41,071 nt of DNA. Origin: Kagunavirus LF7074P1. The position numbers and the translations under genes are program-made. Below, in pieces: positions 13,031 to 40,336 of the stretch. Location of the stretch: the sequence record OZ035758.1. One strand, written 5' to 3'. How positions within the stretch are numbered: position 1 is the first letter of the stretch; each line of letters starts with the position of its first letter. Below the pieces are notes generated by a model, which did not search any database, had not been told where the DNA came from, and saw only the letters and a program-made list of their open reading frames with translations.

Positions 13031-13059
13031 ATAGTACCCTATTATATTGGGGTGTGCAA
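13031..13059 (-). promoter_or_regulatory. Sigma70-like promoter P3 (TTGCAC-17-TACTAT) driving the minus-strand cassette
   Basis: Minus strand reads TTGCACaccccaatataatagggTACTATtca, near-identical to promoter P1 at 35039. Confidence 0.6.
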
Positions 13060-25201: not shown

Positions 25202-25203
25202 AA

Positions 25204-25398: not shown

Positions 25399-25428
25399 TT
25401 CTCAATTCCTTATATTGTTGGTGTGTGA

Positions 25429-25716: not shown

Positions 25717-25797
25717 CTATACACCCCTCCCGTTTCGTATGCGCGATACCGCAGCGAGGGCAGATTCGACAGTCTTCTTCATATAACCAGTAAATTT

Positions 25798-28168: not shown

Positions 28169-28183
28169 TATTTTCGACCCTTA

Positions 28184-28210
28184 GTAAAAAGGCCCAATGA
28201 AGGGCCTTAG
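28184..28210 (-). terminator. Intrinsic terminator between SSB-like gene and DNA polymerase
   Basis: Minus strand aaggccc-ttcatt-gggcc followed by TTTTT. Confidence 0.65.
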
Positions 28211-28227
28211 TTAAATTGATTCAGATA

Positions 28228-28854
28228 TTATCGGCGACGACGTTCGCGGCGCGGTGCTTCATCCTCTTCATCGTCTTCAAGGTCATCGACGCTTGCGGCT
28301 ACTTTAGAACCGCCAAACGCTTTACCTTCACCAACGTATTTAATAGCCAGCAGGTTAACGCCGAGGACTTTGTATTTCTGGCTGAACCAGATTTCAACGC
28401 TTACGTTAGCGACGCAGCCGCTGTAAACCTGTTCACCTTCAATCTGTTCGCCGTCTACGTTGAAGTCCTGCTCTACCTGAGTCTCACCTTTTTTAGAGGT
28501 TACAATCAGCGGCTGCTTCTGTGCCTTCGCTTTGAAGTAGAAGCCTTCTGGGAAGTCTTCAAACGGGTTATCACGCTCAGCAATGTCTTTAATCGCGCAT
28601 TTATCCATGTGCTTACCTTCGCCGTAGTTGGACTTCATCCATTTCTCGGCAGCAGCTGCGCCTAACGCTTCTTCAACTACAGCGTAAACAGTGTCGTAGA
28701 GTGCATCGATTTGAGCGTGGTCAGACGGCAGGATGATAGTCGCGCTGTACTGGCCTTTAGTGATTGAGCCATCATCGTTTTCACGGTCTTTTTCGCGTTC
28801 GAATACGTTAACCCATGCAGTGTTTACTTTACGCAGATTTAATTTCAGTCCCAC
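28228..28854 (-). CDS. Putative ssDNA-binding protein (DUF2815-like)
   Basis: 208 aa, GTG start after gaggg; acidic C-terminal stretch DDLEDDEEDE; sits between Cas4-like nuclease and PolA as in DUF2800/DUF2815/PolA modules. Confidence 0.5.
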   Translation of the reverse strand: MGLKLNLRKVNTAWVNVFEREKDRENDDGSITKGQYSATIILPSDHAQIDALYDTVYAVVEEALGAAAAEKWMKSNYGEGKHMDKCAIKDIAERDNPFEDFPEGFYFKAKAQKQPLIVTSKKGETQVEQDFNVDGEQIEGEQVYSGCVANVSVEIWFSQKYKVLGVNLLAIKYVGEGKAFGGSKVAASVDDLEDDEEDEAPRRERRRR

Positions 28855-28919
28855 AGTTCAGCCCTCATTAAGTTTAGATTTTCAGTTTACTCCGGGAAGC
28901 TGCCCGGCCAGTGATTAGA

Positions 28920-28948
28920 ACTATAATAGCTAACTATTCAGGTGTCAA
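28920..28948 (-). promoter_or_regulatory. Sigma70-like promoter P5 (TTGACA-17-TATAGT)
   Basis: Minus strand TTGACAcctgaatagttagctatTATAGT. Confidence 0.6.
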
Positions 28949-28952
28949 CACT

Positions 28953-30224: not shown

Positions 30225-30568
30225 CCTAAACTCTCCAAATACAAGTTTAATGCCTGTAGCTGTTCTTCTGTGGGGATGAAAGAATCATCGCGGTGTAAGT
30301 CGCTTAACTGTTGCAACATTCCTGCGAACTGACGTCTTGCGTCAACAGCGACCATGTGATGCTTTTCACTTTTGTATATTAATGTTTTCGGGTAATCCTC
30401 AAGCCTGCCAGACGATTTATTCACGCGGAGCGCGCGAGCTTCGTGCGCAATGTGGATGTACTTTTTGCCGTTTTGTAGCACAGTAGCTACACCGCTGTTC
30501 TTTCTGCGGTCACCGACGGTGTAAACTTTGTCGCCGCTGCGCAAATTAAGCCACCATTTATCAGTCAT
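30221..30568 (-). CDS. Hypothetical protein
   Basis: 116 aa from ATG 30568, coupled (ATGA) to flanking genes. Confidence 0.45.
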   Translation of the reverse strand: MTDKWWLNLRSGDKVYTVGDRRKNSGVATVLQNGKKYIHIAHEARALRVNKSSGRLEDYPKTLIYKSEKHHMVAVDARRQFAGMLQQLSDLHRDDSFIPTEEQLQALNLYLESLG

Positions 30569-30837
30569 ACCCTGTTCTCCCACTGATCAATTAAATGTCG
30601 TGTCTTATGGTCGCAGTGCATAGCCCAGCTGTACATCGGCTCAAAGACATAAAAGTCAGGCTTGGCGAATGTCGTGCGCTTAATCTGCGACACGTGACGG
30701 CCTATATCTTTAGACAGCGGTACTTTGCCTAAGTACGCCATCTCTTCCATCTGGTGTGCACCGGACGGCGCACGCAATAACCATAGCGCCTCTGTGGTAT
30801 CCCGCCGGTCAACGGCGCGGTATAGTTGGTAAATCAT
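30565..30837 (-). CDS. Hypothetical protein
   Basis: 90 aa, RBS gaggg 9 nt upstream. Confidence 0.45.
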   Translation of the reverse strand: MIYQLYRAVDRRDTTEALWLLRAPSGAHQMEEMAYLGKVPLSKDIGRHVSQIKRTTFAKPDFYVFEPMYSWAMHCDHKTRHLIDQWENRV

Positions 30838-30880
30838 AATCCCGACCCTCAGTTAAAGCGGCCCGAAGGCCGCGGGATAG

Positions 30881-31390
30881 TTATTCTTCTTCGAAATACT
30901 TGTTCTTGATTGCTGTCAGGCGCTCCAGATACTCAGCCAGGTCTTCGTCTTTAATCGCTGCAATCTTCATCTTCTTACCGGTAAACTCTTCCAGCAGTTC
31001 GTCAGAATCGTCGCACGCGGCATCGCTTGGGCCTTCGTTAATCGCATCGTCGATAGCCTGAATCTGGTCGCGCAGAGACTGGTAATCGACTTCTTCTTTC
31101 TCTTCTTCCGGCTCTGGCGTTGGCTCCTCTACTTTAGCTTTACGCGGCTTGCGTTTCGGCTTCTCTTCTTCCGCAGGTTTAGTGTCAACGAGGTCCTCGC
31201 CTTCGACCGGGATTTCTTTCCCGACGCCAGTGCCTGGGTCGACTTCAAGCACCTCTCCGGTAACCGATACATCTACAAGCATTTCACCTACACACTCAGT
31301 TGACGGCATCGGTCGTTTCGCGCTGTTCGCAGCAATCAGTTCATGCGCAACTACGAAACGTTCCAGTAATACTAAGAATTTCTCTAACAT
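30881..31390 (-). CDS. Highly acidic early protein (candidate DNA mimic / anti-restriction)
   Basis: 169 aa, very Glu/Asp-rich with long acidic runs (EEEKEEVD, DDSDELLEE); first gene after strong promoter P6; RBS GAGGAG. Confidence 0.5.
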   Translation of the reverse strand: MLEKFLVLLERFVVAHELIAANSAKRPMPSTECVGEMLVDVSVTGEVLEVDPGTGVGKEIPVEGEDLVDTKPAEEEKPKRKPRKAKVEEPTPEPEEEKEEVDYQSLRDQIQAIDDAINEGPSDAACDDSDELLEEFTGKKMKIAAIKDEDLAEYLERLTAIKNKYFEEE

Positions 31391-31421
31391 TATTTATTCT
31401 CCTCTCGTTTGGTATGGGCTA

Positions 31422-31450
31422 ACTATAATAGCGAACTATTCACTTGTCAA
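31422..31450 (-). promoter_or_regulatory. Sigma70-like promoter P6 (TTGACA-17-TATAGT), leftward early promoter
   Basis: Minus strand TTGACAagtgaatagttcgctatTATAGT. Confidence 0.65.
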
Positions 31451-31474
31451 TGGGCTTTTCTAAAATAATTAATA

Positions 31475-31483
31475 TGGTACTAT
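31475..31483 (+). promoter_or_regulatory. Extended -10 promoter element (TGgTACTAT) for the XRE regulator gene
   Basis: TGn motif directly upstream of TACTAT; no convincing -35; about 30 nt upstream of ATG 31515. Confidence 0.4.
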
Positions 31484-31514
31484 TCACATATCAACTGACT
31501 AAGGAGTAATTGAC

Positions 31515-31730
31515 ATGCAACCATCTGAACTAGGCATCCGTGTAGAGCAACGCCGTAAAGAACTCGGTATCTCCCAGCGCCATCTGGCTGTCCTGGCCGG
31601 TGTTTCCCAAGGCGCGATTAACCAGCTGGCACTTGGAGTAACTCAGGACGTCCGCCCGGCGACGCTGTTTAAACTGGCGGAAGTGCTGGAAGTAGACGCC
31701 AAGTGGCTGGCGTTCGGTGAAGGGGCTTAA
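31515..31730 (+). CDS. XRE-family helix-turn-helix transcriptional regulator (Cro/CI-like)
   Basis: 71 aa; HTH ISQRHLAVLAGVSQGAINQLALG; RBS AGGAG 8 nt upstream. Confidence 0.7.
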   Translation: MQPSELGIRVEQRRKELGISQRHLAVLAGVSQGAINQLALGVTQDVRPATLFKLAEVLEVDAKWLAFGEGA

Positions 31731-31746
31731 CGCCCCTTTCTTTTTA
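31721..31746. terminator. Bidirectional intrinsic terminator
   Basis: aggggc-ttaac-gcccct hairpin followed by ttcttttt; XRE stop codon lies in the loop; convergent primase gene ends at 31748. Confidence 0.7.
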
Positions 31747-31747
31747 C

Positions 31748-33955
31748 CTATTCCAAATCCTCTTCTGTCACCACCAGCATTTCATTCGGTTCGTATATTG
31801 TCTTCGGTCTTAGTCTATCCCCTATTCTTTCAGGTATACGATACGTTCTCGGTACTACTTCGCCATTAGCATCACAGCCTAGCATTAGTTCACCATCTTT
31901 CAGCATTTTATCAAGATGGGTGTTAGTCACAGAAAAGTCACCGGAACGGGCCACTATCTGCTGCTGAGTAAAACCGCGACCTGTGTCATCTGACTGTTGC
32001 AGGTCTTCCAGTGCCGAAAGTATCGACTCCTTCCTTACTTCATCCCTGCCGCGTTTAACTTCTTCCTTTACTTTTTGTTTACCTTCGTTAGTTAACCCTT
32101 CTTCCCGCTCTTTCTCCTCGTCAGTTTTGAACGGCTCGAAGCCCCACGGCATCAGAACAAGCGCCTTGTGTGGTTCCGGCAGGTCGAGGTTTACGATTGT
32201 GCCGTATTCCTCTGTGCTGCCCAAGAACTCAACAGCACGGTACTCTTTCGGCGGTGGTGCTTCACGGAACTGTACAGACTCAAGTACCATGCCAACCGTT
32301 TTCTGTTGAGGCCCGTGCTTAAATTTCGAGTGGTATACGTTTATCTGACGGTCGGTTGCACGTTCTATTGTCAGTTCCACATCGACACCCGCATACAGCG
32401 CCCCGCTGCCACGGGCTTTCTTTCCGCCCTTCGGTGTATGGTGGACGACGCCCACCGCGGCTTTAGTTGCGTCACGTACTTCTTTAAGGATGGCGATAAC
32501 TTTACCCATGCCGATTGCCGTTGATGAACTGTTCTCGTCGAACTTATCAATCGTCATGGCCAGTGTCTGGTTAAGGGTGTCGAACGCAACCATCCCAATT
32601 GGCTCGTCACCCGCAGTTTCTCGCATTAGCTTAATCAGGCTTTTCAGTTTGCCAACTTCGCCCATATCGATGACATGTACATAATCTTTACCTTCCTCGC
32701 CGTATTTAGCCGCGAGTGCATCAATACGGGTGCGTGTGGCAGCACCGCCCTCACCGTCAATATAGAAATGGTGGCAACGCTGTGTATCAGCGCCTGCAAA
32801 CCGGTACCCGGCGGCGCTCAGGTACATCATACCCAGCGTATAGAATGATTTATATGTGCCGGATTCCCCGACGATGTCCCAGATGCAATCCGACGGCATG
32901 TACCCTTCAACGACGAAATCAGCCTTTACCGGTTCAGGTAACTCGTCATCGTCTTCAAGGTCTTCCAGTGTACAAGTTACAGGCTCCTCGTTCTCTGTGC
33001 GGTGCAGTTCTTCAATCTCTTCATCCGGTAAATCAGGCAGAGCCGCACGAATGCTGTTAATACTGATAGGTTGCTTGTCTACGTTAAGCTCGTCCGGAAG
33101 GCCGCACATACGCAGGGCCAAATGTTGTCGGCGGTTAAGCTCAGTGCAAGCACCGTTGTTTGTGTGCTGGCACACGAAGCGCACTTCTTTACCGTCGAGC
33201 ATGATGCTGGTGGAGCCTTTGCCGGTGTGCAGGTGTTCGTTAGGGCAAGGCACTTCGTACCCGCGACCGGAAGATAAAGCGTCAAGGCCAAGCTCCGCTT
33301 CGCAGAAATGCGCTATATCCGCGTTAAGCCCATGCTCATCGGCAGCAAGGGTCTTAGCTTCACGCTTACGCAACCCCATTTCTTCGGCTTTCTTGATGTA
33401 CCGCTCGGCACGGATAACACGCCCTTCTGTAACCGTTATCTTCGACTCTTTATGCGGCAGGTAGATAAGGCGGTTGCCATCTTCTGTGCAGTGGTCGCGC
33501 AATGCTTCGTCTATTTCTAACTCAGCACAAATAGCACGTTGCACCATCCACGCGTCGTTAGAGTTAAACGGCGTGCGGGCCGGTACAAGAACGCGGAAAG
33601 CGTAGTCACCGTTTTTACACGCGTGCTGGTGCGACGCCGTTGTGTGCAGAATATTGAAGAACGGCGCGTTCTTGAATTTGCGGGTGAGGTCGCGGTACTG
33701 GGTACGGTTTAGATGGTCGAAATCGAACTTAACCACACTGTCTTCCAGAATCGCGTTCTTACGGCGACCGCCAACCGGCGCAATAGCTTTCTGCTTAATC
33801 TTGGCCGCGTCGTACTCTTCCTTAGTCCATGACGGGTCTACGGACAGACGCTTCGATGTATCGCAGACATACTCTACAAACTGCTCCAGTGGCATTTCAC
33901 GGGCTACCGGGTTTTTATCGAAAGTGTTACGCAGCGTTGCAAAAACAATATTCAT
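31748..33955 (-). CDS. Primase-helicase fusion (AEP/PrimPol-type N-terminal domain, Zn-binding region, P-loop helicase C-terminal domain)
   Basis: 735 aa; N-terminal VKFDFDHL (DxD); Cys/His cluster CPNEHLHTGK...CQHTNNGAC; Walker A GESGTYKS. Confidence 0.7.
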   Translation of the reverse strand: MNIVFATLRNTFDKNPVAREMPLEQFVEYVCDTSKRLSVDPSWTKEEYDAAKIKQKAIAPVGGRRKNAILEDSVVKFDFDHLNRTQYRDLTRKFKNAPFFNILHTTASHQHACKNGDYAFRVLVPARTPFNSNDAWMVQRAICAELEIDEALRDHCTEDGNRLIYLPHKESKITVTEGRVIRAERYIKKAEEMGLRKREAKTLAADEHGLNADIAHFCEAELGLDALSSGRGYEVPCPNEHLHTGKGSTSIMLDGKEVRFVCQHTNNGACTELNRRQHLALRMCGLPDELNVDKQPISINSIRAALPDLPDEEIEELHRTENEEPVTCTLEDLEDDDELPEPVKADFVVEGYMPSDCIWDIVGESGTYKSFYTLGMMYLSAAGYRFAGADTQRCHHFYIDGEGGAATRTRIDALAAKYGEEGKDYVHVIDMGEVGKLKSLIKLMRETAGDEPIGMVAFDTLNQTLAMTIDKFDENSSSTAIGMGKVIAILKEVRDATKAAVGVVHHTPKGGKKARGSGALYAGVDVELTIERATDRQINVYHSKFKHGPQQKTVGMVLESVQFREAPPPKEYRAVEFLGSTEEYGTIVNLDLPEPHKALVLMPWGFEPFKTDEEKEREEGLTNEGKQKVKEEVKRGRDEVRKESILSALEDLQQSDDTGRGFTQQQIVARSGDFSVTNTHLDKMLKDGELMLGCDANGEVVPRTYRIPERIGDRLRPKTIYEPNEMLVVTEEDLE

Positions 33956-34080
33956 TTCTTTTTCTCCGCGCGTTCTAAGGCTTCCTGCATACGACGCATT
34001 GCGCGGTTCATCTTTACCGGTGCGAAGAAATCAGCGCCGTGTTTCTGGCGGCGCAACTGTGGAACTATTAACTTCGTCAT
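33952..34080 (-). CDS. Small basic hypothetical protein (42 aa), not in ORF track
   Basis: RBS AGGA 8 nt upstream of ATG; stop overlaps primase ATG (ATGA). Confidence 0.3.
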   Translation of the reverse strand: MTKLIVPQLRRQKHGADFFAPVKMNRAMRRMQEALERAEKKK

Positions 34081-34149
34081 TGTATAATCCTTGTGCTTAC
34101 TTTGATGATTTGTGCTTCGGCCCCGACGTTCTAGCGTTGGGGTTTCTTT

Positions 34150-34440
34150 TTACCGTTTAGCCAACTCTTCCAGCAAATTTTTATACTCTTCAAAATATTC
34201 CTCGACCAAATCATCGCCGAAATAGAAGTCGATATACTCGAGATTATCTCTTACGTTAAGCGACGCAGACATGGTGCTTAGTTGGCGTAAGCTAATTAGC
34301 TTCATTTCTGTTTCTACACAGAAAGGCCGGTAGGTATCGAGGTGGCAAGAGATGTTGAAGCATAAAGCGAACTCTCCCGCCACGGAGTGAACCATATACA
34401 CTTCGTTTTCTGCTTTATTGTGGAAAATTACACCTTTCAT
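34150..34440 (-). CDS. Hypothetical protein
   Basis: 96-aa acidic ORF coupled to upstream HTH gene (ATGA). Confidence 0.45.
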   Translation of the reverse strand: MKGVIFHNKAENEVYMVHSVAGEFALCFNISCHLDTYRPFCVETEMKLISLRQLSTMSASLNVRDNLEYIDFYFGDDLVEEYFEEYKNLLEELAKR

Positions 34441-34619
34441 TTCACATTCTCCTTAATCCATTCTTCAACTTTATTACGGTCAAATGTACCTGGTAAACGG
34501 CGACCCATAACCTTAATACAACAATCAGGGAATTTACCACTGCGCAACCAGTTATTAATTGTCTGACGTGTTACCCCAATACGCTCGGCTACTTCATTCT
34601 GGGTCATGTAATGTTGCAT
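34437..34619 (-). CDS. Small HTH DNA-binding protein (AlpA/excisionase-like fold suggested)
   Basis: 60 aa from ATG 34619 (RBS AGGAG 8 nt upstream); MTQNEVAERIGVTRQTINNWLRSGKFP. Confidence 0.5.
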   Translation of the reverse strand: MQHYMTQNEVAERIGVTRQTINNWLRSGKFPDCCIKVMGRRLPGTFDRNKVEEWIKENVK

Positions 34620-34650
34620 TTTTATATCTCCTGTTTGTTTGGTGAAGCTG

Positions 34651-34679
34651 AGTATAGGATAGCGGGAATGTAAAAGCAA
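34651..34679 (-). promoter_or_regulatory. Candidate sigma70 promoter (TTGCTT-17-TATACT) for the HTH/primase operon
   Basis: Read on the minus strand upstream of the 34619 start. Confidence 0.4.
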
Positions 34680-34716
34680 CCAATCCCTGCAATATTTAAT
34701 CTTTACAAAAAAGTTA

Positions 34717-34746
34717 TTGAAAGTTCTTGACACATGTTTGTATAAT
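34717..34746 (+). promoter_or_regulatory. Candidate rightward sigma70 promoter (TTGAAA-18-TATAAT)
   Basis: Consensus -10 TATAAT at 34741-34746; reads into a non-coding region containing a long hairpin. Confidence 0.4.
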
Positions 34747-34773
34747 GGTTTTGGGACTTGTATATATTACGGA

Positions 34774-34805
34774 GTTGACGAACCCTCCCTGAGGGATTCG
34801 TCAAC
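34774..34805 (+). other. Long perfect inverted repeat / stem-loop (GTTGACGAACCCTC-CCT-GAGGGATTCGTCAAC)
   Basis: ~14-bp perfect stem read directly from sequence; about 30 nt downstream of the candidate promoter at 34717. Confidence 0.7.
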
Positions 34806-34946
34806 CCCTCCCAGACAGCTGAGATGCTTGTTTTAGGGTTTAAGGATAAGTGTATCTAAATCTCATTTAAAGAAGTAACCCACTGAAATATCTACTGTTT
34901 CTTAATGTGCCGTAGATTCGCAACCGTAAAAATGTAACGATTATTG

Positions 34947-34972
34947 GGCAGGCTTAAGGCCTGCCCTTTAGT
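34947..34972 (+). terminator. Weak terminator-like hairpin
   Basis: gggcaggc-ttaag-gcctgccc stem followed by ttt. Confidence 0.35.
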
Positions 34973-35038
34973 TACCAAGTAATAAGAATAAAGGCACAAC
35001 CTTCCCCGAAGAATCACAACGGCAACGTAACTAATCTC

Positions 35039-35067
35039 TTGCACACCCCAACATAATAGGATACTAT
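35039..35067 (+). promoter_or_regulatory. Sigma70-like promoter P1 (TTGCAC-17-TACTAT), rightward early promoter
   Basis: TTGCACaccccaacataataggaTACTAT; conserved leader ...aaacgagacagaggag... to ATG 35102. Confidence 0.65.
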
Positions 35068-35101
35068 TCACTTATCGAAACGAGACAGAGGAGTGAGGGT
35101 T

Positions 35102-35284
35102 ATGTTTAAGAATGGTCAGTTGGTGAAAACAAAGCGCAGCCGGCAACACGTAATAGTTACCAAAGACGAGGATGAATATGGTGTTGTCGCCGTATTTAGC
35201 CTTATACGGAGGAAACATGGTTATGTTCGTCACGATAATTTAGAACTCATCGGCAACAATTTTAAATTCAAAGGGGCGAAGTGA
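35102..35284 (+). CDS. Hypothetical early protein (60 aa)
   Basis: ATG 8 nt after GAGGAG. Confidence 0.45.
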   Translation: MFKNGQLVKTKRSRQHVIVTKDEDEYGVVAVFSLIRRKHGYVRHDNLELIGNNFKFKGAK

Positions 35285-35469
35285 TGGGAGAATTAATTTA
35301 CGACGTATACGTCGACGGGGTCATAACAGAGACGACAAGTAATAAAGATTACGCAATAAAGCGGTATGTGTATTATGCCGCAGTGGTAGGAAGGATGGTA
35401 GAAGTGCGGGAGCAAACGGCATCGAATCATGATGCTCGTGCCGACGACTCTGAGGGAGGTTGCCGTTAA
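35284..35469 (+). CDS. Hypothetical protein
   Basis: ATG overlapping upstream TGA; RBS aagggg. Confidence 0.4.
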   Translation: MGELIYDVYVDGVITETTSNKDYAIKRYVYYAAVVGRMVEVREQTASNHDARADDSEGGCR

Positions 35470-35624
35470 TGCGAATCCGTATAACTGACCGCAGGCTTAT
35501 AGATTTCGGTATCTCGGTAGGTGATGTTTTTCTGGCGTTCAGCAGCAACCATTATGGTTTTATGATTGAGTACAAAGGGTCGTTATTGTTCGTGTATCGG
35601 GATGAATGTGAGGTTCTGGTATGA
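35469..35624 (+). CDS. Small hypothetical protein (51 aa), not in ORF track
   Basis: TAATG coupling to the upstream gene. Confidence 0.3.
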   Translation: MRIRITDRRLIDFGISVGDVFLAFSSNHYGFMIEYKGSLLFVYRDECEVLV

Positions 35625-35764
35625 GAGAAGCATTTGAACGGTGGGCTGTGGTCGAGGGTCTGCCGGTTAACAAGGGTTCAAAGAAAGAGTACCTGAACGT
35701 TAAGACCCGTCTCGCGTGGCGGGCGTTGAAAGCTGGTGTGTTGTCTGTTGCGAATCCGAGGTGA
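35621..35764 (+). CDS. Small hypothetical protein (47 aa), not in ORF track
   Basis: ATGA coupling; basic. Confidence 0.3.
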   Translation: MREAFERWAVVEGLPVNKGSKKEYLNVKTRLAWRALKAGVLSVANPR

Positions 35765-35767
35765 GAT

Positions 35768-35968
35768 ATGAGCGAGTGGATTAAGTGTAGTGAGATGCTG
35801 CCAGGTAATGGGTATACGGATAAAGAGTTCCTGGTGTATGAAACGTTAAATAACGCAGTTCAGCACGATTATTACATAGTTCCTGATGACGGGAGAAAGC
35901 CTTTCTGGAATCACTACGATAAGTACGTGACGCACTGGATGCCGTTACCCGAGCCGCCAGAAGTGTGA
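35768..35968 (+). CDS. Hypothetical protein, DUF551-like C-terminus
   Basis: 66 aa ending THWMPLPEPPEV, a motif recalled from a widespread enterophage protein family. Confidence 0.45.
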   Translation: MSEWIKCSEMLPGNGYTDKEFLVYETLNNAVQHDYYIVPDDGRKPFWNHYDKYVTHWMPLPEPPEV

Positions 35969-36101
35969 TGTTCAATAGTTTGGGATCTTACTGAGTGACT
36001 TACGCTGCTACACAGCAGCGTACAACTTTAACTTAGTGTCGTCAAAGGCGACACTTTCATCAAACGCAACAATCGAAGCGACTATTGCAGGAGATGCAAC
36101 A

Positions 36102-36275
36102 ATGATTACTAAAGAACAGGCTGAACGACTAATCACGTTAATCGACACGATGATTGACGTAAAAACCGATTTAGCAACGGCAACAGAGGAATCCGCTACC
36201 TGGTCGCTTGAAGAAAGAGAAGCAGAAGCGGAAAGGGAGTTACTGGCGTTCATCGACTCTATAACACACCAATAA
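36102..36275 (+). CDS. Hypothetical acidic protein (57 aa)
   Basis: ATG 36102 8 nt after AGGAG (track ORF starts further upstream at 36036). Confidence 0.4.
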   Translation: MITKEQAERLITLIDTMIDVKTDLATATEESATWSLEEREAEAERELLAFIDSITHQ

Positions 36276-36282
36276 AATTTAC

Positions 36283-36311
36283 TTGCACACTAAGATAGAA
36301 TAGGCTACTAT
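36283..36311 (+). promoter_or_regulatory. Sigma70-like promoter P2 (TTGCAC-17-TACTAT)
   Basis: TTGCACactaagatagaataggcTACTAT; conserved leader ...aaacgagaggggag... to ATG 36343. Confidence 0.65.
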
Positions 36312-36342
36312 TCATTTACACAAACGAGAGGGGAGACAGAAT

Positions 36343-36471
36343 ATGAAAGATTATAGCGAAGTAACTTTAGGCGAGTTGCAGGACGAGTACGAAGATATGC
36401 TCTACCCGTTCATCTGCGACGGGGACTACAACGGCGTCTATAACGGGGTGAGCGAAGAATATGAACACTAA
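36343..36471 (+). CDS. Small acidic hypothetical protein (42 aa), not in ORF track
   Basis: Strong RBS gagaggggag; first ORF after P2. Confidence 0.35.
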   Translation: MKDYSEVTLGELQDEYEDMLYPFICDGDYNGVYNGVSEEYEH

Positions 36472-36919
36472 AAACGAAATATTCGAGTACCTGATCGACC
36501 AACTACGGCAGCAGGTAAATAACAGCCGGAGCGAAGACCTGGCGCATGAGGTGCAGTCACTTAAGAATCAGTTACGTGATGCGTCGGCGCAGATTAAGGA
36601 GTTGCGTCTGGCGCTGGTCAAAGCTACGGGTGACGTGGAGGCGTACAAACTTATCCGCAAACAGGAGCAATCCGGTTGCCGTAAGGAAGACGTTCAGGAA
36701 TGCGACCACAATTGGATTATCGCTCCCGGATTGTTTATTGCCGAAGGTCACAAGGATAACGTGCCAGGTAGTCGGTTTTGCCGTGAATGTGGTGCGCGTG
36801 AGTGGGACGACAAGGAATATAAACCTAAAAACGATACGCAGAAATGCAAACACGAGTGGAGTAGGTACATTGTACACCCTCACAGAAAGATATGTTTAGT
36901 ATGCGGGGTGGAGGAATGA
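36461..36919 (+). CDS. Hypothetical protein with N-terminal coiled coil and C-terminal Cys-rich (zinc-ribbon-like) region
   Basis: 152 aa; Cys pairs CRKEDVQEC, CRECG, CKHEW, CLVCG. Confidence 0.45.
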   Translation: MNTKNEIFEYLIDQLRQQVNNSRSEDLAHEVQSLKNQLRDASAQIKELRLALVKATGDVEAYKLIRKQEQSGCRKEDVQECDHNWIIAPGLFIAEGHKDNVPGSRFCRECGAREWDDKEYKPKNDTQKCKHEWSRYIVHPHRKICLVCGVEE

Positions 36920-37119
36920 CCAGCATCTTATTTATCTGGGTGCTGTCCACGGGTCAGATGCAACTAGCGGCATCAGAAACGTTTTACTCGATGGAGGCGT
37001 GCCAGTCCGCGGCACGCGCCGCAGAGAACGCACACTTCCTGTTTCAGGGCGACAAGCCCAACGATTCAGAGGTGCGCGCTATCTGCTCACCTAAGCGACT
37101 TGGTAAACAGGAGAAGTGA
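36892..37119 (+). CDS. Hypothetical protein with N-terminal hydrophobic (signal-like) segment
   Basis: Start uncertain (ATG 36892/36901/36916); ILFIWVLSTGQMQLAASE. Confidence 0.35.
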   Translation: MFSMRGGGMTSILFIWVLSTGQMQLAASETFYSMEACQSAARAAENAHFLFQGDKPNDSEVRAICSPKRLGKQEK

Positions 37120-37325
37120 TTGTGGCGCAGAGATATTTATTACAAGGCGGTTTAATTGGACCGCACGATGCAGGTGATTGGGTTGGCTATGAAGATTACG
37201 CAAAACTTGAGGCCGCCGTTATCGCATTACTTGCGGACATAAACCGACGCTACCCTGGAGAAGGGTTTAAGTGCCCGTTAATACTTAAACTCGCGGAGAT
37301 TGTGGAACATGAGCCTGGCAACTGA
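37116..37325 (+). CDS. Hypothetical protein
   Basis: 69-aa ORF; start probably GTG 37122, 8 nt after AGGAG. Confidence 0.4.
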   Translation: MIVAQRYLLQGGLIGPHDAGDWVGYEDYAKLEAAVIALLADINRRYPGEGFKCPLILKLAEIVEHEPGN

Positions 37326-37602
37326 CATCCTTAAACGCAGCGGCCTTGCGCCGCTGTCGCCGAGAGCGAATACACGAATACACAAGCGCCGCCGTAATGC
37401 ACTGTACCCCGAGATTCAGGCCAGGCGCAAAGCGGTCCGCGCCTGTGGATTCCAGAACGGGAAGGCCGTGAATCTCGGTGAGTTTAAAACGCAGGAACGT
37501 GCAGCTATCGCTAATCGGCTATTTAATTACTGGAAATCGCTGGGGTACGTGGATATTCCGACGAAACCACAGAGACGACAATACATCTGGCGGCATAAAT
37601 AA
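37309..37602 (+). CDS. Hypothetical basic protein
   Basis: 97 aa from ATG 37309; Arg/Lys-rich. Confidence 0.4.
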   Translation: MSLATDILKRSGLAPLSPRANTRIHKRRRNALYPEIQARRKAVRACGFQNGKAVNLGEFKTQERAAIANRLFNYWKSLGYVDIPTKPQRRQYIWRHK

Positions 37603-37677
37603 ACCGTTATTAAGATAATTCCTACCCGTGGTATCCTCCAGTTACTGCATACTTAATACGCACCTGGAGGATTCATC

Positions 37678-37986
37678 TTGGATAAATTTACTGAAACAGT
37701 GACAGGCTGGCTTCTCGCCGCCGCGCTCGCCGGAGGGGTCATCGGACTACGACAACATAAGTCCGTTATTTCTGGCCCTATCGACGGATTCTGCTTTATT
37801 GCTACTGGTTTCGCCTGCGCTGTATTTGGCGCACCTCTCGCGGCTCAATGGTTCGGTATCACGGGCGACCGTGAAATCGCTGGCCTTGGCTTCATCATCG
37901 CTATTCTCTGGATGCCTATCTATTCCCGTCTCTCCAGTATCGTCGCTGGAGAATACATCGCACGTCGAGGAGGCACAGATGAATGA
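37678..37986 (+). CDS. Holin (three predicted TM segments)
   Basis: TTG start 7 nt after GGAGG; three hydrophobic helices; immediately upstream of endolysin. Confidence 0.55.
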   Translation: MDKFTETVTGWLLAAALAGGVIGLRQHKSVISGPIDGFCFIATGFACAVFGAPLAAQWFGITGDREIAGLGFIIAILWMPIYSRLSSIVAGEYIARRGGTDE

Positions 37987-38251
37987 GTTATTCTGGTTCG
38001 GCGGTATGCTGGCAATCGGCGGCACATCGCTGTTTAATGTATACCATCCGAGCGTGGATGACGGGCTATTTGGTCGGGTGCTCTATATCCTGACTGCTAT
38101 CGTCTGCGCTGCCGGATGTATCCACCTGTTACAGGGCAGCATGTCGCCGACGCTGCCTGAGACATTAATCACATTAGTTGCGCTGCGTCAGATTCGTCAG
38201 GCGTGGCTGTCATACGGAGGACATAAGCGTGTCTCGAAACATTTCAGATAA
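37979..38251 (+). CDS. Second small membrane protein (two TM segments); holin/antiholin-like
   Basis: 90 aa from ATG 37979 overlapping the upstream gene end; hydrophobic FWFGGMLAIGGTSLF and VLYILTAIVCAAGCIHLL. Confidence 0.45.
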   Translation: MNELFWFGGMLAIGGTSLFNVYHPSVDDGLFGRVLYILTAIVCAAGCIHLLQGSMSPTLPETLITLVALRQIRQAWLSYGGHKRVSKHFR

Positions 38252-38717
38252 TGGATTGCATTTTACCGCCGCGTTTGAGGGGTTCCGCGGAACTGCGTAT
38301 CGTGCTACGCCATCGGAAAAATACTTAACTATAGGCTACGGTCATTACGGGCCGGACGTGGCCCCAGGCAAGACCATCACGCCAGGGCAAGGCCTCCTGT
38401 TACTGAACCGTGATATGGCTAAGGCCGTAGCTGCGGTTGACGCAGCGGCGCACCATTCGCTAACACAGGCGCAGTTTGATGCAGTGTGCGACCTGGTCTA
38501 TAACGCGGGGGCCGGCGTTATTTCGGCTACTACCGGTACAGGTAAGGCACTGCGCTCCGGTGATATCGCGACGTTACGGGCTAAACTGGCGCTGTTCATC
38601 AACCAGAACGGCAAACCGTTACTGGGCCTTCGCCGCCGTACCGCCGGTCGCCTGGCGCTGTTTGACGGTAAACCGTGGCAAGAGGCGGAGGCTATCGGGC
38701 GCGCGGTGAAAGGTTGA
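38229..38717 (+). CDS. Endolysin, glycoside hydrolase family 24 (lambdoid/P22 gp19-type lysozyme)
   Basis: GTG start 8 nt after GGAGG; motifs EGFRGTAY...TIGYGH...QFDAVCDLVYNAG...LLGLRRRTAGRLALF parallel P22-type lysozymes; no N-terminal signal-arrest-release segment. Confidence 0.8.
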   Translation: MSRNISDNGLHFTAAFEGFRGTAYRATPSEKYLTIGYGHYGPDVAPGKTITPGQGLLLLNRDMAKAVAAVDAAAHHSLTQAQFDAVCDLVYNAGAGVISATTGTGKALRSGDIATLRAKLALFINQNGKPLLGLRRRTAGRLALFDGKPWQEAEAIGRAVKG

Positions 38718-38782
38718 CACCCAAGACTAATCCGATGATACTTAAATCACCTCCTGTTCCATCCCTCTGCTCTCCAGTTTTA

Positions 38783-38813
38783 TCCCGGCCCTGACCCAGC
38801 CGGGATTTTTTTT
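38783..38813 (+). terminator. Strong rho-independent terminator after lysis cassette
   Basis: tcccggc-(9-nt loop)-gccggga stem followed by 8 T. Confidence 0.8.
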
Positions 38814-38835
38814 ATCTATTTTCTGCAATGACTAG

Positions 38836-38864
38836 TTGACTATTATCCTAGACCCTACTATATT
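38836..38864 (+). promoter_or_regulatory. Sigma70-like promoter P8 (TTGACT-17-TATATT)
   Basis: TTGACTattatcctagaccctacTATATT; leader contains the conserved ACGAGA before the RBS. Confidence 0.55.
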
Positions 38865-38897
38865 TACTTCATCGACAACGAGAACGGAGTAGAGAAG

Positions 38898-39047
38898 ATG
38901 AAAATCACAGATACCGAAGCATTCGAAGACGCGCAACTGATGGCGCGCATTGCCGTTAGTCACCGGGGTGGGAGCATTCCCGCGGACTCGTTCTGGTTCG
39001 CTGCGATGCAGACACTGAAAGCAGCTTATGCAGGAGAGAAGAAATGA
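38898..39047 (+). CDS. Small hypothetical protein (49 aa), not in ORF track
   Basis: RBS ggag; ATGA-coupled to next ORF. Confidence 0.3.
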   Translation: MKITDTEAFEDAQLMARIAVSHRGGSIPADSFWFAAMQTLKAAYAGEKK

Positions 39048-39238
39048 AAAATATAGTCCCAGAAGTCGGTAAAGGTTGCTTCGTTGTTTCTTATTTCGAT
39101 GGGGACGAGTACGTTGATTGCGGCCAGTTTCATCAATCTGGTGATGCTGGTGCTTACGCCGCGAAGTTAGTAGGTACTACGCCACTGGAAGACATTCGTA
39201 TTGTATTCAATATGGAACTTGCAGGAGATAAGAAATGA
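39044..39238 (+). CDS. Hypothetical protein
   Basis: 64-aa ORF, coupled. Confidence 0.4.
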   Translation: MKNIVPEVGKGCFVVSYFDGDEYVDCGQFHQSGDAGAYAAKLVGTTPLEDIRIVFNMELAGDKK

Positions 39239-39393
39239 GCGAACACGGTGAAGTAAGCCAACCATTACGAGTAGGCCGTAAAGTCAGTCACACCCCGTTC
39301 CCGACACGCGAGGAACTGATGAAACGTAATAGTTTCCCGGGGCCGGACAAGAACAAGTATCTCAATCGCATGTGGGGAGAGCGTAAAGAATGA
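39235..39393 (+). CDS. Small hypothetical protein (52 aa), not in ORF track
   Basis: ATGA coupling on both sides. Confidence 0.3.
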   Translation: MSEHGEVSQPLRVGRKVSHTPFPTREELMKRNSFPGPDKNKYLNRMWGERKE

Positions 39394-39563
39394 CTAACAA
39401 CGAATACGAGAAACTTAGCGTCGAATCTGCGACCGGTGAATCAGAAATAGCATGGATTGACGCCCACATTGAGCACTACTTACGGCAAGTAGACGCCCTT
39501 ATGGAACGCCGCCGCGAGCTGATTAACCGCTTCAACCTGAACAAATGTGACACCAATGCCTAA
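39390..39563 (+). CDS. Small hypothetical protein (57 aa), not in ORF track
   Basis: ATGA coupling. Confidence 0.3.
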   Translation: MTNNEYEKLSVESATGESEIAWIDAHIEHYLRQVDALMERRRELINRFNLNKCDTNA

Positions 39564-39759
39564 AATCACAATCGCATCACTCGAGCGCCGTATTCTGGTG
39601 CTTGAGTCAGAGAAACAGACGTTAGGCGGACAACTGTCAATTAACGGTGAGTTTCAGCTGGAGGCGTTTAAGTTGTTGCTCGGGAAATTGAAGGAAGAAG
39701 AGCAGAAGCTACTACTCTCCCCTGAGTTCGATTACGGTGTTGATGATGAAAGCGCCTGA
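39556..39759 (+). CDS. Hypothetical coiled-coil protein
   Basis: ORF in track (39547 GTG or 39556 ATG start). Confidence 0.4.
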   Translation: MPKITIASLERRILVLESEKQTLGGQLSINGEFQLEAFKLLLGKLKEEEQKLLLSPEFDYGVDDESA

Positions 39760-39928
39760 ACCCGTAGTTATCGATGGCGTCCTGTGGAAACCATACTCGG
39801 TTAACCACATCGACGCCGACGGGAAGAAGTTCAGCTTCTACATTTTTGCAATTAGCCGTGAGCACGCCGCTTGTGTGGTTGATGATATACGAGAAACAGC
39901 GTGGCTTGGTGATGAGATAGTGGGGTGA
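39737..39928 (+). CDS. Hypothetical protein
   Basis: ORF in track; start TTG 39737 or ATG 39740/39743. Confidence 0.4.
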   Translation: MLMMKAPEPVVIDGVLWKPYSVNHIDADGKKFSFYIFAISREHAACVVDDIRETAWLGDEIVG

Positions 39929-39932
39929 GAGT

Positions 39933-40103
39933 ATGTTCAGTGACATCAACGCAGCAATCGAAGAAGCAATCTGGCGCAGATACAACGGCGAGCAACAACG
40001 GCACTTCTGCCTGGTGCAACGTGGAAACATGATTGCCGTAGTGCAGGACCGCGATAACAAATATCCGAATGCGATGTGGACAACGAGGAATTTTGTAGGA
40101 TGA
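39933..40103 (+). CDS. Small hypothetical protein (56 aa), not in ORF track
   Basis: ATG 39933; stop overlaps next ATG (ATGA). Confidence 0.3.
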   Translation: MFSDINAAIEEAIWRRYNGEQQRHFCLVQRGNMIAVVQDRDNKYPNAMWTTRNFVG

Positions 40104-40336
40104 TTACCAGCATTCCGAACCTGATTAAAGAATACGGCACGATGGCGGAGACATGCCGACAAACCGGCATCAACGAAATGACGATTGCCAAGTACCGCAA
40201 CGACGTGAACTGCGAGCGCCACGTAATTTATAACAACCGTCTTATGACGCACGTTAAGACAAGCCCGGTGTTATTCACGCGCCGTGGTATCACTAAAACT
40301 GAGCAACGTATTGCTAAAGAGGAGAGCGGAGAATGA
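40100..40336 (+). CDS. Small HTH-like protein; candidate regulator
   Basis: 78 aa from ATG 40100; ETCRQTGINEMTIAKYRN helix-turn-helix-like; last substantial gene before the terS promoter region. Confidence 0.4.
   Translation: MITSIPNLIKEYGTMAETCRQTGINEMTIAKYRNDVNCERHVIYNNRLMTHVKTSPVLFTRRGITKTEQRIAKEESGE

What the first reader, a model, noticed from the sequence alone, without database searches (positions are those of the whole stretch)
35102..37602. Array of 11 small, translationally coupled early ORFs: candidate host-takeover or anti-defence genes
Downstream of promoters P1 and P2 lie 11 ORFs of 40-150 aa, many joined by ATGA/TAATG overlaps and several shorter than 60 aa (so missing from the ORF track). 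One has a DUF551-like C-terminus and one a Cys-rich zinc-ribbon-like region; the rest have no recognisable features. Early small-gene arrays of this kind are where anti-restriction, anti-CRISPR and host shut-off proteins are typically found.
Basis: inference. Interest (0 to 1): 0.4.

Follow-up and report, generated by a model that had tools for sequence, protein, structure and literature searches.

The report
Small accessory-gene array of a Kagunavirus
The eleven small genes are real, but they are the ordinary shuffled block of small genes that every K1G-like E. coli phage carries between its replication and lysis genes; eight are swappable accessory genes of unknown role, three are conserved core genes (one a likely DNA-binding regulator), and nothing ties any of them to host takeover or anti-defence.

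Summary
The window is a complete Kagunavirus genome (Guernseyvirinae, K1G-like), 99.6% identical to OZ035752.1. All 11 ORFs exist at 35102-37602. They are 42-152 aa, each has a Shine-Dalgarno-like sequence, and 8 of 10 junctions overlap or leave at most 3 nt. pN/pS is 0.07-0.34 for ten of them, so they are genes.

They form two units behind two copies of a conserved promoter-like motif, TTGCAC-N17-TACTAT. A third copy drives a superinfection-immunity/polynucleotide-kinase cassette elsewhere.

The array is not uniform. o8, o9 and o11 occur in nearly all relatives:
- o11 is a remote AP2-type DNA-binding protein.
- o9 is a very conserved small protein that looks exported.
- o8 is a coiled coil with 1-4 CxHxW...CxxC zinc-ribbon modules. 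It is hypervariable: 1357 clusters at 90% identity, against 49 (o9) and 42 (o11).

o4 is also near-universal. The other ORFs (o1-o3, o5-o7, o10) are patchy or allelic cassettes swapped between invariant non-coding junctions.

No ORF matches a known anti-defence or host-shutoff family. Published phenotyping reports that Kagunavirus isolates Bas70-76 are highly restriction-sensitive. "Early" timing is unproven, and one coarse transcriptome argues against it for most of the array.

Verdict: observation confirmed, interpretation partly supported. This is an ordinary accessory region, already deposited in hundreds of genomes as hypothetical proteins.

The parts
35039..35067 (+). P1: promoter-like motif TTGCAC-N17-TACTAT. 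Its conserved flanks and 5'UTR (CTTGCACAC..ATAATAGGaTACTATTCAcTTA..AACGAGACAGAGGAG) run to the o1 start codon.
   Evidence: Exact motif copy and a 48-nt direct repeat with P2. It is nearly invariant in 8 Kagunavirus relatives even where o1 is only 44% identical, and it is recognisable in Jerseyvirus SE2. It matches sigma-70 at only 7 of 12 positions, so the scanner did not call it.
35102..35284 (+). o1, 60 aa, unknown function (phrog_12538). The slot is nearly always occupied, but by divergent alleles.
   Evidence: pN/pS 0.34. Full-length hit in 28 of 32 arrays, only 4 of them at 80% identity or more.
35284..35469 (+). o2, 61 aa, unknown function (phrog_30617). This is the weakest coding evidence of the eleven. 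A mosaic breakpoint lies inside it: only the C-terminal 18 aa are shared with most relatives.
   Evidence: pN/pS 0.69 on few differences. 10 full-length and 20 C-terminal-only hits in 32 arrays.
35469..35624 (+). o3, 51 aa, unknown function (phrog_30395). GenBank depositors label the fTaEco01 and G AB-2017 homologues FeoA-like (SH3-type barrel).
   Evidence: pN/pS 0.18. Present in 18 of 32 arrays.
35621..35764 (+). o4, 47 aa, unknown function (phrog_15836). ATGA-coupled to o3. Near-universal in Kagunavirus.
   Evidence: pN/pS 0.25. 30 of 32 arrays, 29 of them at 80% identity or more.
35768..35968 (+). o5, 66 aa, a stand-alone DUF551 domain. Two allelic types circulate (about 95-98% and about 40% identity).
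   Evidence: PF04448, E 6.3e-12, 46.6 bits against a cut-off of 22. pN/pS 0.19. Alleles. DUF551 is a portable domain of unknown function (PMC10834534, PMC4776307).
36001..36055 (+). Two stable hairpins (36001-36022 and 36035-36055) inside the invariant 133-nt o5-o6 spacer. Probably a leaky terminator or processing site that ends the P1 unit.
   Evidence: Fold z-score -2.95. The spacer is identical in 9 phages. In SZH-1 and SCS92 hairpin 1 is followed by a T-run, as in a classical intrinsic terminator. The terminator scanner did not call it in the window.
36102..36275 (+). o6, 57 aa, acidic helical protein of family DUF7438. It is a cassette, replaced by an unrelated ORF or absent in some relatives.
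   Evidence: PF24219, E 2.2e-11, 44.4 bits against a cut-off of 25. phrog_653. pN/pS 0.17. 10 of 32 arrays. Cassette replacement seen.
36283..36311 (+). P2: second copy of the promoter-like motif, immediately after the o6 stop codon. It heads o7-o11, and no terminator-like site was called between it and the lysis genes.
   Evidence: Invariant block ACACCAATAAAATTTACTTGCACAC...TACTATTCATTTACAC in 9 phages, with different genes downstream. Two motif copies in 31 of 33 arrays. The only terminator-like site called downstream lies inside the holin ORF at 38017-38032.
36343..36471 (+). o7, 42 aa, very acidic, unknown function (phrog_35344). A rare accessory cassette.
   Evidence: pN/pS 0.07 on 3 pairs. 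Found in only 25 of 50,697 phage records.
36461..36919 (+). o8, 152 aa. Conserved 48-aa N-terminus, variable-length coiled coil, and two CxHxW-(13-25)-CxxC(G) zinc-ribbon-like modules. A core gene by position, but hypervariable in sequence.
   Evidence: phrog_6094. Weak zinc-ribbon Pfam hits, all below cut-off. 1357 clusters at 90% identity, lengths 104-260 aa, 1-4 modules. C81, H83, W85, C107 and C110 are invariant; C129, H131, W133, C145 and C148 are at least 90% conserved. Present in 30 of 32 arrays, never at 80% identity or more. Model pLDDT 65. No significant fold match.
36916..37119 (+). o9, 67 aa (72 aa if started at ATG 36901). Hydrophobic N-terminal segment followed by QLAA/SE and two Cys, so probably a small exported or membrane protein. 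The most conserved gene of the array.
   Evidence: 93-99% identity in all 10 relatives across two genera, pN/pS 0.07. 474 phage records. Only 49 clusters at 90% identity. Export is inferred from the sequence, not tested.
37116..37325 (+). o10, 69 aa, GTG start, unknown function (phrog_23083/23941 over residues 19-66). A variable slot: relatives share only the first 32-35 aa, or carry other genes here.
   Evidence: 3 full-length and 6 partial hits in 32 arrays.
37309..37602 (+). o11, 97 aa, basic. Invariant N-terminus MSLATDILK plus a remote, N-terminally trimmed AP2-type DNA-binding domain (two strands and a helix, residues 43-77). A core gene sitting just before the holin here and in several relatives; others have one extra gene in between.
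13031..13059 (-). P3: third exact copy of the same promoter-like motif, on the other strand inside the structural module. It heads a superinfection-immunity / metallophosphoesterase / PNK-phosphatase / kinase cassette (about 12999-10598).
   Evidence: The same three sites occur in fTaEco01, where 0.17 matches are expected by chance.

Best explanation
This is the hyperplastic accessory-plus-regulatory block of a Kagunavirus. It lies between the divergent control region and the lysis cassette.

Shown:
- There are two tandem, translationally coupled gene units, o1-o5(-o6) and o7-o11. Each starts behind a copy of one conserved promoter-like element with a conserved 5'UTR and Shine-Dalgarno sequence.
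- A third copy of that element drives an immunity/RNA-end-repair-like cassette elsewhere in the genome.
- Non-coding junctions (P1, the o5-o6 hairpin spacer, P2) are invariant among relatives, while the genes between them are swapped.
- All the ORFs except possibly o2 are under purifying selection.

Inferred:
- The invariant junctions serve both as regulatory sites and as homologous-recombination anchors for cassette exchange.
- The patchy or allelic genes (o1-o3, o5-o7, o10) are dispensable fitness factors that act on the host, its defences or competing phages. Their individual targets are unknown.
- The conserved trio o8-o9-o11 belongs to the phage's own programme. o11 is a sequence-specific DNA-binding regulator. 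o9 is an envelope-directed small protein. o8 is an oligomeric zinc-binding adaptor whose rapid diversification suggests that it contacts a variable partner.
- Because the motif has a poor -35 hexamer and extra conserved bases, and because a consensus sigma-70 promoter plus a hairpin lies upstream of P1, the array is more likely delayed-early or middle than immediate-early.
For: - Identity of the phage and synteny with annotated relatives.
- ORFs, ribosome-binding sites and coupling.
- Purifying selection.
- Promoter motif: three exact copies in the window and three in fTaEco01 (0.17 expected); diverged copies in Jerseyvirus; two copies in 31 of 33 arrays.
- Invariant junctions around swapped cassettes.
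- Core versus accessory split. Arrays run 1783-4213 nt. A rough clustering gives 45 ORF families in 33 arrays, with only 6 families in 79% or more of arrays and 22 singletons.
- Lower GC (0.41-0.47 against about 0.50-0.55 elsewhere).
- o11 as an AP2-type protein.
- o8 architecture and hypervariability.
- Upstream consensus promoter and hairpin.
- The accessory-region concept: bioRxiv 10.1101/2023.04.06.535777.
Against: - There are no expression, translation or phenotype data for this phage.
- The promoter assignment rests on conservation alone. The hexamers match sigma-70 at 7 of 12 positions and no transcription start site is mapped.
- No function is assigned to 9 of the 11 proteins.
- The o8 cluster count could be inflated by its greater length and internal repeats, and the search retrieves candidates through a word index.
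- o4 is near-universal despite sitting in the 'accessory' half, so the core/accessory split is not clean.
- The ORF-family clustering is rough. Single linkage merged o8, o9 and o10 into one family.
Confidence: 0.55

Rival explanations
1. The whole array is an immediate-early host-takeover or anti-defence operon, transcribed by unmodified host RNA polymerase from P1 and P2. Its products inhibit restriction, CRISPR or other defences, or shut off host functions.
For: - The genes are small, coupled, lower in GC and next to the divergent control region.
- Most slots are variable among relatives, as in known anti-defence accessory regions.
- The same promoter type drives a superinfection-immunity/PNK cassette, which is a host- or competitor-interaction module.
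Against: - No similarity to any known anti-defence or shut-off family.
- Kagunavirus isolates are reported as highly RM-sensitive and variably Old-sensitive (PMC11990801).
- Three or four genes are core, and one is a DNA-binding-type protein.
- At most 3 of the 7 called array genes can be early in the K1B4 time course.
- P1 and P2 are poor consensus matches, while a far better sigma-70 promoter lies upstream.
Confidence: 0.2
2. A nin-like or exo-xis-like housekeeping block. Most of the products serve the phage's own DNA metabolism, transcription control or lysis timing, as in the lambda nin and exo-xis regions. Variation reflects functionally equivalent alleles rather than an arms race.
For: - The position between the replication and lysis genes mirrors the lambda nin region.
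- DUF551 occurs in an Ea22 variant and in YfdS of prophage CPS-53.
- The o1, o5 and o8 slots are nearly always filled, by divergent alleles.
- o11 is DNA-binding-like.
- A NinH-like gene lies in the second small-ORF array downstream of the endolysin in fTaEco01.
Against: - No Nin, Ea22 or TraR Pfam family is hit by any of the 11 ORFs.
- Several cassettes (o6, o7, o10, o3) are simply absent from most relatives, which does not fit housekeeping roles.
Confidence: 0.2
3. Many of the ORFs are annotation noise: chance open frames in a transcribed leader of the lysis/late operon.
For: Four ORFs are shorter than 60 aa. o2 has pN/pS 0.69 and an internal mosaic breakpoint. Older records such as K1G annotate only 2 genes here.
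Against: - pN/pS is 0.07-0.34, with third-position-biased substitutions, for ten ORFs.
- Shine-Dalgarno-like sequences and start/stop overlaps occur at every junction.
- Every ORF has a PHROG family.
- Independent annotations call the same frames.
Confidence: 0.05

Closest known systems
The same region in published Guernseyvirinae genomes (Kagunavirus LF7074P1 OZ035752.1; fTaEco01 MT711527.1 genes TE1_049-060; L AB-2017; K1G; Jerseyvirus SE2 and LP31)
   Same: Same position, strand, promoter-like motifs and junctions. 99.6% nucleotide identity to LF7074P1. Homologues of o8, o9 and o11 are present in both genera.
   Different: Only 6-7 of about 360-460 matching records cover 80% or more of the region. 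This particular cassette combination is rare. All homologues are annotated as hypothetical, or carry evidently spurious names such as 'lactocepin', 'glycosyl hydrolase' or 'TolA-binding'.
Phage accessory regions as defined by Silas et al. (bioRxiv 10.1101/2023.04.06.535777); classical examples are the T7 0.3-0.7 genes and the lambda nin and exo-xis regions
   Same: A hotspot of small, fast-changing genes on one strand, flanked by conserved genes. Gene content differs between close relatives.
   Different: No gene here matches a characterised accessory gene (ocr, ral, abc2, nin, ea22 and so on). The Guernseyvirinae names searched for do not occur in that paper's main text. Three or four genes inside the block are core. 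The T7 and lambda comparisons are from general knowledge and were not tested.
Lambda Ea22 (exo-xis region)
   Same: o8 shares the design principle: a conserved N-terminal segment, a central coiled coil and mosaic C-terminal modules. An Ea22 variant carries DUF551, the domain of o5 (PMC10834534).
   Different: No sequence similarity, and no hit to the Ead_Ea22 family. The C-terminal modules of o8 are CxHxW...CxxC zinc ribbons in variable copy number.
AP2/ERF DNA-binding domain (PF00847), as found in plant and apicomplexan transcription factors
   Different: o11 itself gets no Pfam AP2 hit and appears to lack the first strand. It is a stand-alone 97-aa protein with a conserved extra N-terminal motif. 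DNA binding is untested.

Membership tests
Phage accessory (hyperplastic) small-gene region | A cluster of small ORFs on one strand, tightly packed or translationally coupled | tested here: met
   11 ORFs of 42-152 aa. 8 of 10 junctions overlap or leave at most 3 nt.
Phage accessory (hyperplastic) small-gene region | Gene content varies among close relatives while the flanks are conserved | tested here: met
   Arrays are 1783-4213 nt long. o6, o7 and o10 are present in 3-10 of 32 arrays, against 32 of 32 for o11. About 45 ORF families occur in 33 arrays. The HTH gene and holin flanks are conserved.
Phage accessory (hyperplastic) small-gene region | Genes dispensable for growth on a permissive host | not testable with these tools
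   Needs deletion mutants. Natural absence of o3, o6, o7 and o10 from many viable relatives is indirect support.
Early (pre-replicative) host-takeover operon | Transcribed first after infection, by unmodified host RNA polymerase | tested here: inconclusive
   P1 and P2 match sigma-70 at 7 of 12 positions and were not called by the scanner. A separate promoter matching at 11 of 12 sits upstream. In the K1B4 time course only 4 of 57 genes are early, one of them the HTH gene.
Known anti-defence proteins (anti-restriction, anti-CRISPR and similar) | Sequence or fold similarity to a characterised inhibitor family | tested here: not met
   No functional hit in Pfam, PHROGs, NCBIfam or PDB sequences. 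No dedicated anti-defence HMM library was available, and PADLOC holds defence-system models only.
Known anti-defence proteins (anti-restriction, anti-CRISPR and similar) | Protects the phage from a defence system | not testable with these tools
   Indirect evidence against: Kagunavirus Bas70-76 are reported as highly RM-sensitive (PMC11990801).
DUF551 (PF04448), for o5 | Score above the Pfam gathering threshold over the full domain | tested here: met
   46.6 bits against a cut-off of 22. Residues 3-65 align to profile positions 1-68 of 68.
DUF7438 (PF24219), for o6 | Score above the Pfam gathering threshold | tested here: met
   44.4 bits against a cut-off of 25. Residues 2-54 align to profile positions 1-57 of 57.
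AP2 DNA-binding domain (PF00847), for o11 | Direct Pfam match above threshold | tested here: not met
   No Pfam hit for o11 at E up to 1. Family member P0164 scores 21.6 bits against a cut-off of 33.3.
AP2 DNA-binding domain (PF00847), for o11 | Three-stranded sheet packed on a helix, with remote profile or fold similarity to bona fide AP2 domains | tested here: inconclusive
Zinc-ribbon proteins (DZR PF12773, Zn_Ribbon_1 PF13240), for o8 | Pfam match above threshold and four conserved metal ligands per module | tested here: inconclusive
   Pfam scores of 17.3 and 16.5 bits fall below the cut-offs of 27.3 and 25. C81, H83, C107 and C110 are invariant, and C129, H131, C145 and C148 are at least 90% conserved, in 45 sequences. 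No significant fold match. Metal binding is untested.
Lambda nin / exo-xis region gene families (Nin proteins, Ead_Ea22, TraR-like) | Sequence membership of any of the 11 ORFs in those families | tested here: not met
   No such family appears in the Pfam scan at E up to 1. The resemblance is positional and architectural only.

The most novel reading that the evidence does not exclude
The array and its surroundings form one phage-specific regulon. A phage DNA-binding protein (the early HTH protein or the AP2-like o11) would control the extended TTGCAC-N17-TACTAT elements. The ~115-nt structured element just upstream of P1 would gate read-through from the strong upstream promoter; it has an invariant GCCGUA...ACGGC closing stem around interchangeable GC hairpins. 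Within the regulon, the hypervariable coiled-coil/zinc-ribbon protein o8 would be an arms-race interface with a host factor or defence sensor, which would make it a new class of modular counter-defence or takeover protein.
Probability: 0.1. Interest if true: 0.6.

Novelty: new member of a known kind. Interest (0 to 1): 0.3.

Why it matters
Kagunaviruses are being developed as therapeutic and synthetic-biology chassis phages (PMC11990801). It helps to know which small genes are swappable cargo and which are core: o8, o9 and o11, with o4 also near-universal. It also helps to know that invariant junctions and a three-copy promoter-like motif organise the block. Together these tell engineers where payloads can go and which genes to test first. 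For basic biology, the useful leads are the hypervariable zinc-ribbon protein o8 and the AP2-like o11. The array as such is an ordinary example of a well-known kind of locus.

Tried and rejected
- **Rfam.** Nothing in the whole window at gathering thresholds. The only match in 34400-37800 at E up to 5 was one chance-level hit (Hrs12, 22.6 bits against a gathering score of 70).
- **Family libraries.** PADLOC, NCBIfam and PDB-sequence searches of the ORFs gave nothing meaningful.
- **Fold search for o8.** Foldseek against the PDB gave a best E-value of 1.3, on Rpb9-type tandem zinc ribbons. Treated as no match because the model is of low confidence.
- **TraR/DksA-like or Ogr-like zinc finger for o8.** Considered from memory and rejected, because no such Pfam hit appeared.
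- **K1B4 transcriptome paper (PMC12645636).** Neither the text nor the supplements name the three other early genes, and the time resolution is coarse.
- **Accessory-gene screen papers.** The Guernseyvirinae names searched for do not occur in their main text, and DUF551 does not occur in PMC12373910.
- **First motif pattern.** It used the wrong spacer length and found nothing. It was redone as a regular expression; that expression missed P2, which has a 1-nt register difference, and was corrected.
- **ORF clustering.** Single linkage merged o8, o9 and o10, and also o2 and o3, so family counts are approximate.
- **Longer o6 start (GTG 36036).** Rejected in favour of ATG 36102, which has an AGGAG Shine-Dalgarno sequence and matches the 174-nt gene annotated in relatives.
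- **Overlapping alternative frames inside o8** (36546-36899 on + and 36572-36883 on -). Treated as chance ORFs.

Full report
**What the window is.** The 41,071-nt window is a complete genome of a K1G-like siphophage (Guernseyvirinae, Kagunavirus). The finding's region is 99.6% identical to OZ035752.1 (Kagunavirus LF7074P1, 41,072 bp). It matches about 360-460 Escherichia and Salmonella phage records, but only 6-7 of them cover 80% or more of it. The layout:
- Structural genes lie on the + strand from 30 to 23102.
- Replication genes lie on the - strand from 23265 to 34619, ending with a small HTH gene at 34440-34619.
- The + strand then carries the 11 small ORFs, a holin (37678), a second holin, an endolysin, another run of small ORFs and the small terminase.

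**Checking the observation.** All 11 ORFs are present at the stated coordinates. They are 42-152 aa long and four are shorter than 60 aa. Each start codon follows a Shine-Dalgarno-like sequence. Eight of the ten junctions are overlaps (TGATG, TAATG, ATGA twice, GTGA, 11 nt, 17 nt) or a 3-nt gap. The two real gaps are the 133-nt o5-o6 spacer and the 67-nt o6-o7 spacer, which contains P2. o5 is a full-length DUF551 domain and o6 is a DUF7438 domain, both above Pfam thresholds. o8 has the Cys-rich region, whose zinc-ribbon hits are all below threshold. All 11 fall in PHROG families of unknown function.

These are real genes rather than chance frames. In codon alignments against ten fetched relatives, pN/pS is 0.07-0.34 for ten ORFs and substitutions are biased to third positions; the neighbouring holin scores 0.14. 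o2 is the weak one, at 0.69 on few differences. Independent GenBank annotations call the same frames.

**Promoters.** They match the sigma-70 consensus at only 7 of 12 positions, so the scanner did not report them. They are nonetheless exact copies of one motif inside a 48-nt direct repeat. A third exact copy lies at 13059-13031 on the minus strand. It sits in front of a small membrane ORF and metallophosphoesterase, PNK-phosphatase and kinase-like genes embedded in the tail-gene module. In fTaEco01 that small ORF is annotated as a superinfection-immunity protein. The same three sites, with the same sequences, occur in fTaEco01, where 0.17 matches are expected by chance. Diverged copies (TTGACG...ATATAATAGTGTACTATTAC...AACGAGA) occur in Jerseyvirus, and 31 of 33 complete arrays carry two copies. 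P1 with its 5'UTR is almost invariant even where the downstream o1 protein is only 44% identical. P2 is invariant in front of different genes. I therefore accept them as functional regulatory elements. Whether host RNA polymerase uses them unaided is unknown.

**Mosaic structure.** I compared ten annotated relatives and 39 IMG/VR contigs, the latter retrieved with the invariant box CACAACGGCAACGTAAC. The distance from the box to the holin ranges from 1783 to 4213 nt. In 32 other complete arrays the hits were:

| ORF | Full-length hits (of 32) | Note |
|---|---|---|
| o11 | 32 | 29 at ≥80% identity |
| o4 | 30 | 29 at ≥80% identity |
| o9 | 28 | plus 2 partial; all 28 at ≥80% identity |
| o8 | 21 | plus 9 partial; none at ≥80% identity |
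| o1 | 28 | only 4 at ≥80% identity |
| o5 | 25 | two allele types |
| o3 | 18 | |
| o2 | 10 | plus 20 that share only the C-terminal 18 aa |
| o6 | 10 | |
| o7 | 10 | |
| o10 | 3 | plus 6 partial |

A rough clustering of all ORFs in 33 arrays gave about 45 families, with six present in at least 79% of arrays and 22 singletons (approximate, because single linkage merged some families). Across all phage records, o9 is found in 474, o11 in 493 and o7 in only 25. The segment also has lower GC, 0.41-0.47 against about 0.50-0.55 elsewhere. So the block is a typical accessory hotspot, but it contains a conserved core.

**The core genes.**
- **o11** has an invariant N-terminus (MSLATDILK) and a basic C-terminal half. 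Its Jerseyvirus homologues show the classical AP2 pattern.
  - An exhaustive HMMER search with the family profile found 70 proteins. One is a 924-aa protein with nine AP2 repeats (Pfam AP2 E 6.9e-33), each of which the profile matches weakly. One family member hits AP2 below threshold.
  - I read o11 as a remote, trimmed AP2-type DNA-binding protein. Membership by Pfam threshold is not met.
- **o9** is 93-99% identical across two genera, with pN/pS 0.07. It has a hydrophobic N-terminal segment followed by QLAA/SE and two cysteines, so it is probably exported. That is inference only.
- **o8** has a conserved 48-aa N-terminus, a coiled coil of variable length and 1-4 copies of a CxHxW-(13-25)-CxxC module with invariant candidate metal ligands.
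  - Its family has 1357 clusters at 90% identity, against 49 for o9 and 42 for o11, which are adjacent genes in the same genomes.
  - The model is of low confidence and has no significant fold match.

**Is it early, and is it anti-defence?** No ORF resembles a known anti-defence, anti-CRISPR or shut-off protein in Pfam, PHROGs, NCBIfam, PADLOC or PDB sequences. No dedicated anti-defence library was available. [quoted passage not shown] Two of those isolates carry 97%-identical o9 or o11. This argues against potent general anti-restriction genes in typical arrays, but it says nothing about other defences or about this phage's particular cassettes.

On timing, the only Kagunavirus time course (PMC12645636) classes 4 of 57 genes as early, one of them the leftward HTH gene. 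So at most three of the seven genes it calls in the equivalent array can be early. The study is coarse and does not name them.

From the sequence, a much better sigma-70 promoter (TTGAAA-18-TATAAT, 11 of 12) lies at 34717-34746. It would transcribe an ORF-free, strongly structured leader (fold z-score -4.4) that ends in a GC hairpin at 34946-34966, about 70 nt before P1. Relatives have different promoter-like and leader sequences at the same place. All share GCCGTA, one of three alternative GC hairpins, and the invariant box AAGAATCACAACGGCAACGTAAC; the GCCGU and ACGGC parts can pair. Together with the poor -35 hexamer and the extra conserved bases of the P motif, this makes a delayed-early or middle, factor-dependent programme at least as likely as immediate-early expression.

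**Most likely mechanism (confidence about 0.55).** Two coupled operons are driven by a phage-specific conserved promoter type that also drives the immunity/PNK cassette. A hairpin pair at 36001-36055 separates the first unit from o6 and P2; it is invariant in nine phages and is followed by a T-run in two of them. No terminator-like site was called between o11 and the holin, so the second unit may read into the lysis genes; this is inferred. The invariant junctions act as recombination anchors, so cassettes are exchanged among co-infecting relatives. The variable cassettes are probably dispensable host-, defence- or competitor-directed factors. o8, o9 and o11 serve the phage's own programme, with o11 as a DNA-binding regulator. 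Rivals:
- A nin/exo-xis-like housekeeping block (0.2).
- Annotation noise (0.05).

**Comparison with what is known, and novelty.** The region is already deposited in hundreds of genomes, with the ORFs annotated as hypothetical proteins. As a kind, it matches the accessory-region concept (bioRxiv 10.1101/2023.04.06.535777) and, by position, the lambda nin and exo-xis blocks. o8 resembles Ea22 in design only (PMC10834534). It is a new member of a known kind. The modestly new points are the three-copy promoter motif, the invariant junctions, the AP2-like call for o11, the extreme diversity of o8 and the structured element upstream of P1. Interest 0.3.

Noticed in passing
window 13059-10598, minus strand: A third exact copy of the P1/P2 motif (13059-13031) heads a leftward cassette inserted between tail genes. 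The cassette holds a small membrane ORF starting near 12999 (annotated as a superinfection-immunity, Imm-type, protein in fTaEco01), a 413-aa metallophosphoesterase-like protein, a 161-aa PNK-type HAD phosphatase (E 3.6e-19) and a 184-aa kinase-like protein. It could be an RNA/DNA-end repair module directed against host nucleases, co-regulated with the small-ORF array. A hairpin with a closing stem (GCGCC...GGCGC) lies just upstream of this promoter too.
   Followed up: partly
window 34909-35031: A conserved element of about 115 nt lies immediately upstream of P1. The invariant GCCGTA(G) and the invariant box AAGAATCACAACGGCAACGTAAC can pair (GCCGU/ACGGC). They enclose one of three unrelated GC-rich hairpins in different relatives (GGGCAGGC.., TTGGTGCC.., GGGGTGGGC..). 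There is one compensatory change within a type (GGC/GCC to GGT/ACC in L017 and L047). It could be a terminator or attenuator, an RNA processing site, or a pair of inverted protein-binding half-sites. It has no Rfam match.
   Followed up: partly
window 34717-34980: The best sigma-70 consensus promoter of the region (TTGAAA-18-TATAAT, 11 of 12) points rightward into about 220 nt with no credible ORF. That stretch folds unusually well (z-score -4.4) and ends at the hairpin 34946-34966 followed by CTTTAG. It may be a small non-coding RNA or a regulatory leader. Relatives carry different promoter-like and leader sequences in the same position.
   Followed up: partly
window 34619-34700, minus strand: A probable leftward promoter for the HTH/replication operon (TTGCTT-17-TATACT). 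Its -10 hexamer falls on columns that are invariant in all nine aligned phages.
   Followed up: no
window 37634-37680: The holin starts with TTG (37678). Its Shine-Dalgarno sequence (GGAGG, 37666-37670) lies in the 3' arm of an 8-bp inverted repeat, TCCTCCAG (37634-37641) / CTGGAGGA (37664-37671). This could mask the ribosome-binding site and tune holin translation.
   Followed up: no
window 38714-40336: A second run of small coupled ORFs (about 49-86 aa) follows the endolysin. It is preceded by two good sigma-70-like promoters (38714-38742 TTGACA-17-GATACT; 38836-38864 TTGACT-17-TATATT). Relatives annotate DUF2737 and NinH-like proteins there.
   Followed up: no
window 36461-36919 and loci L001-L050: The o8 family varies in coiled-coil length and in the number of CxHxW...CxxC modules (1-4), giving proteins of 104-260 aa. 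It has about 30 times more clusters at 90% identity than the two genes downstream of it in the same genomes.
   Followed up: partly
window 37309-37335 and the homologues aligned in A1: The first nine residues of o11 (MSLATDILK) are identical in all 17 sequences aligned, Jerseyvirus homologues included, although the rest of the protein falls to about 33% identity. The cause could be a protein motif, or a constraint from the overlap with the upstream gene and its coupling signal.
   Followed up: no
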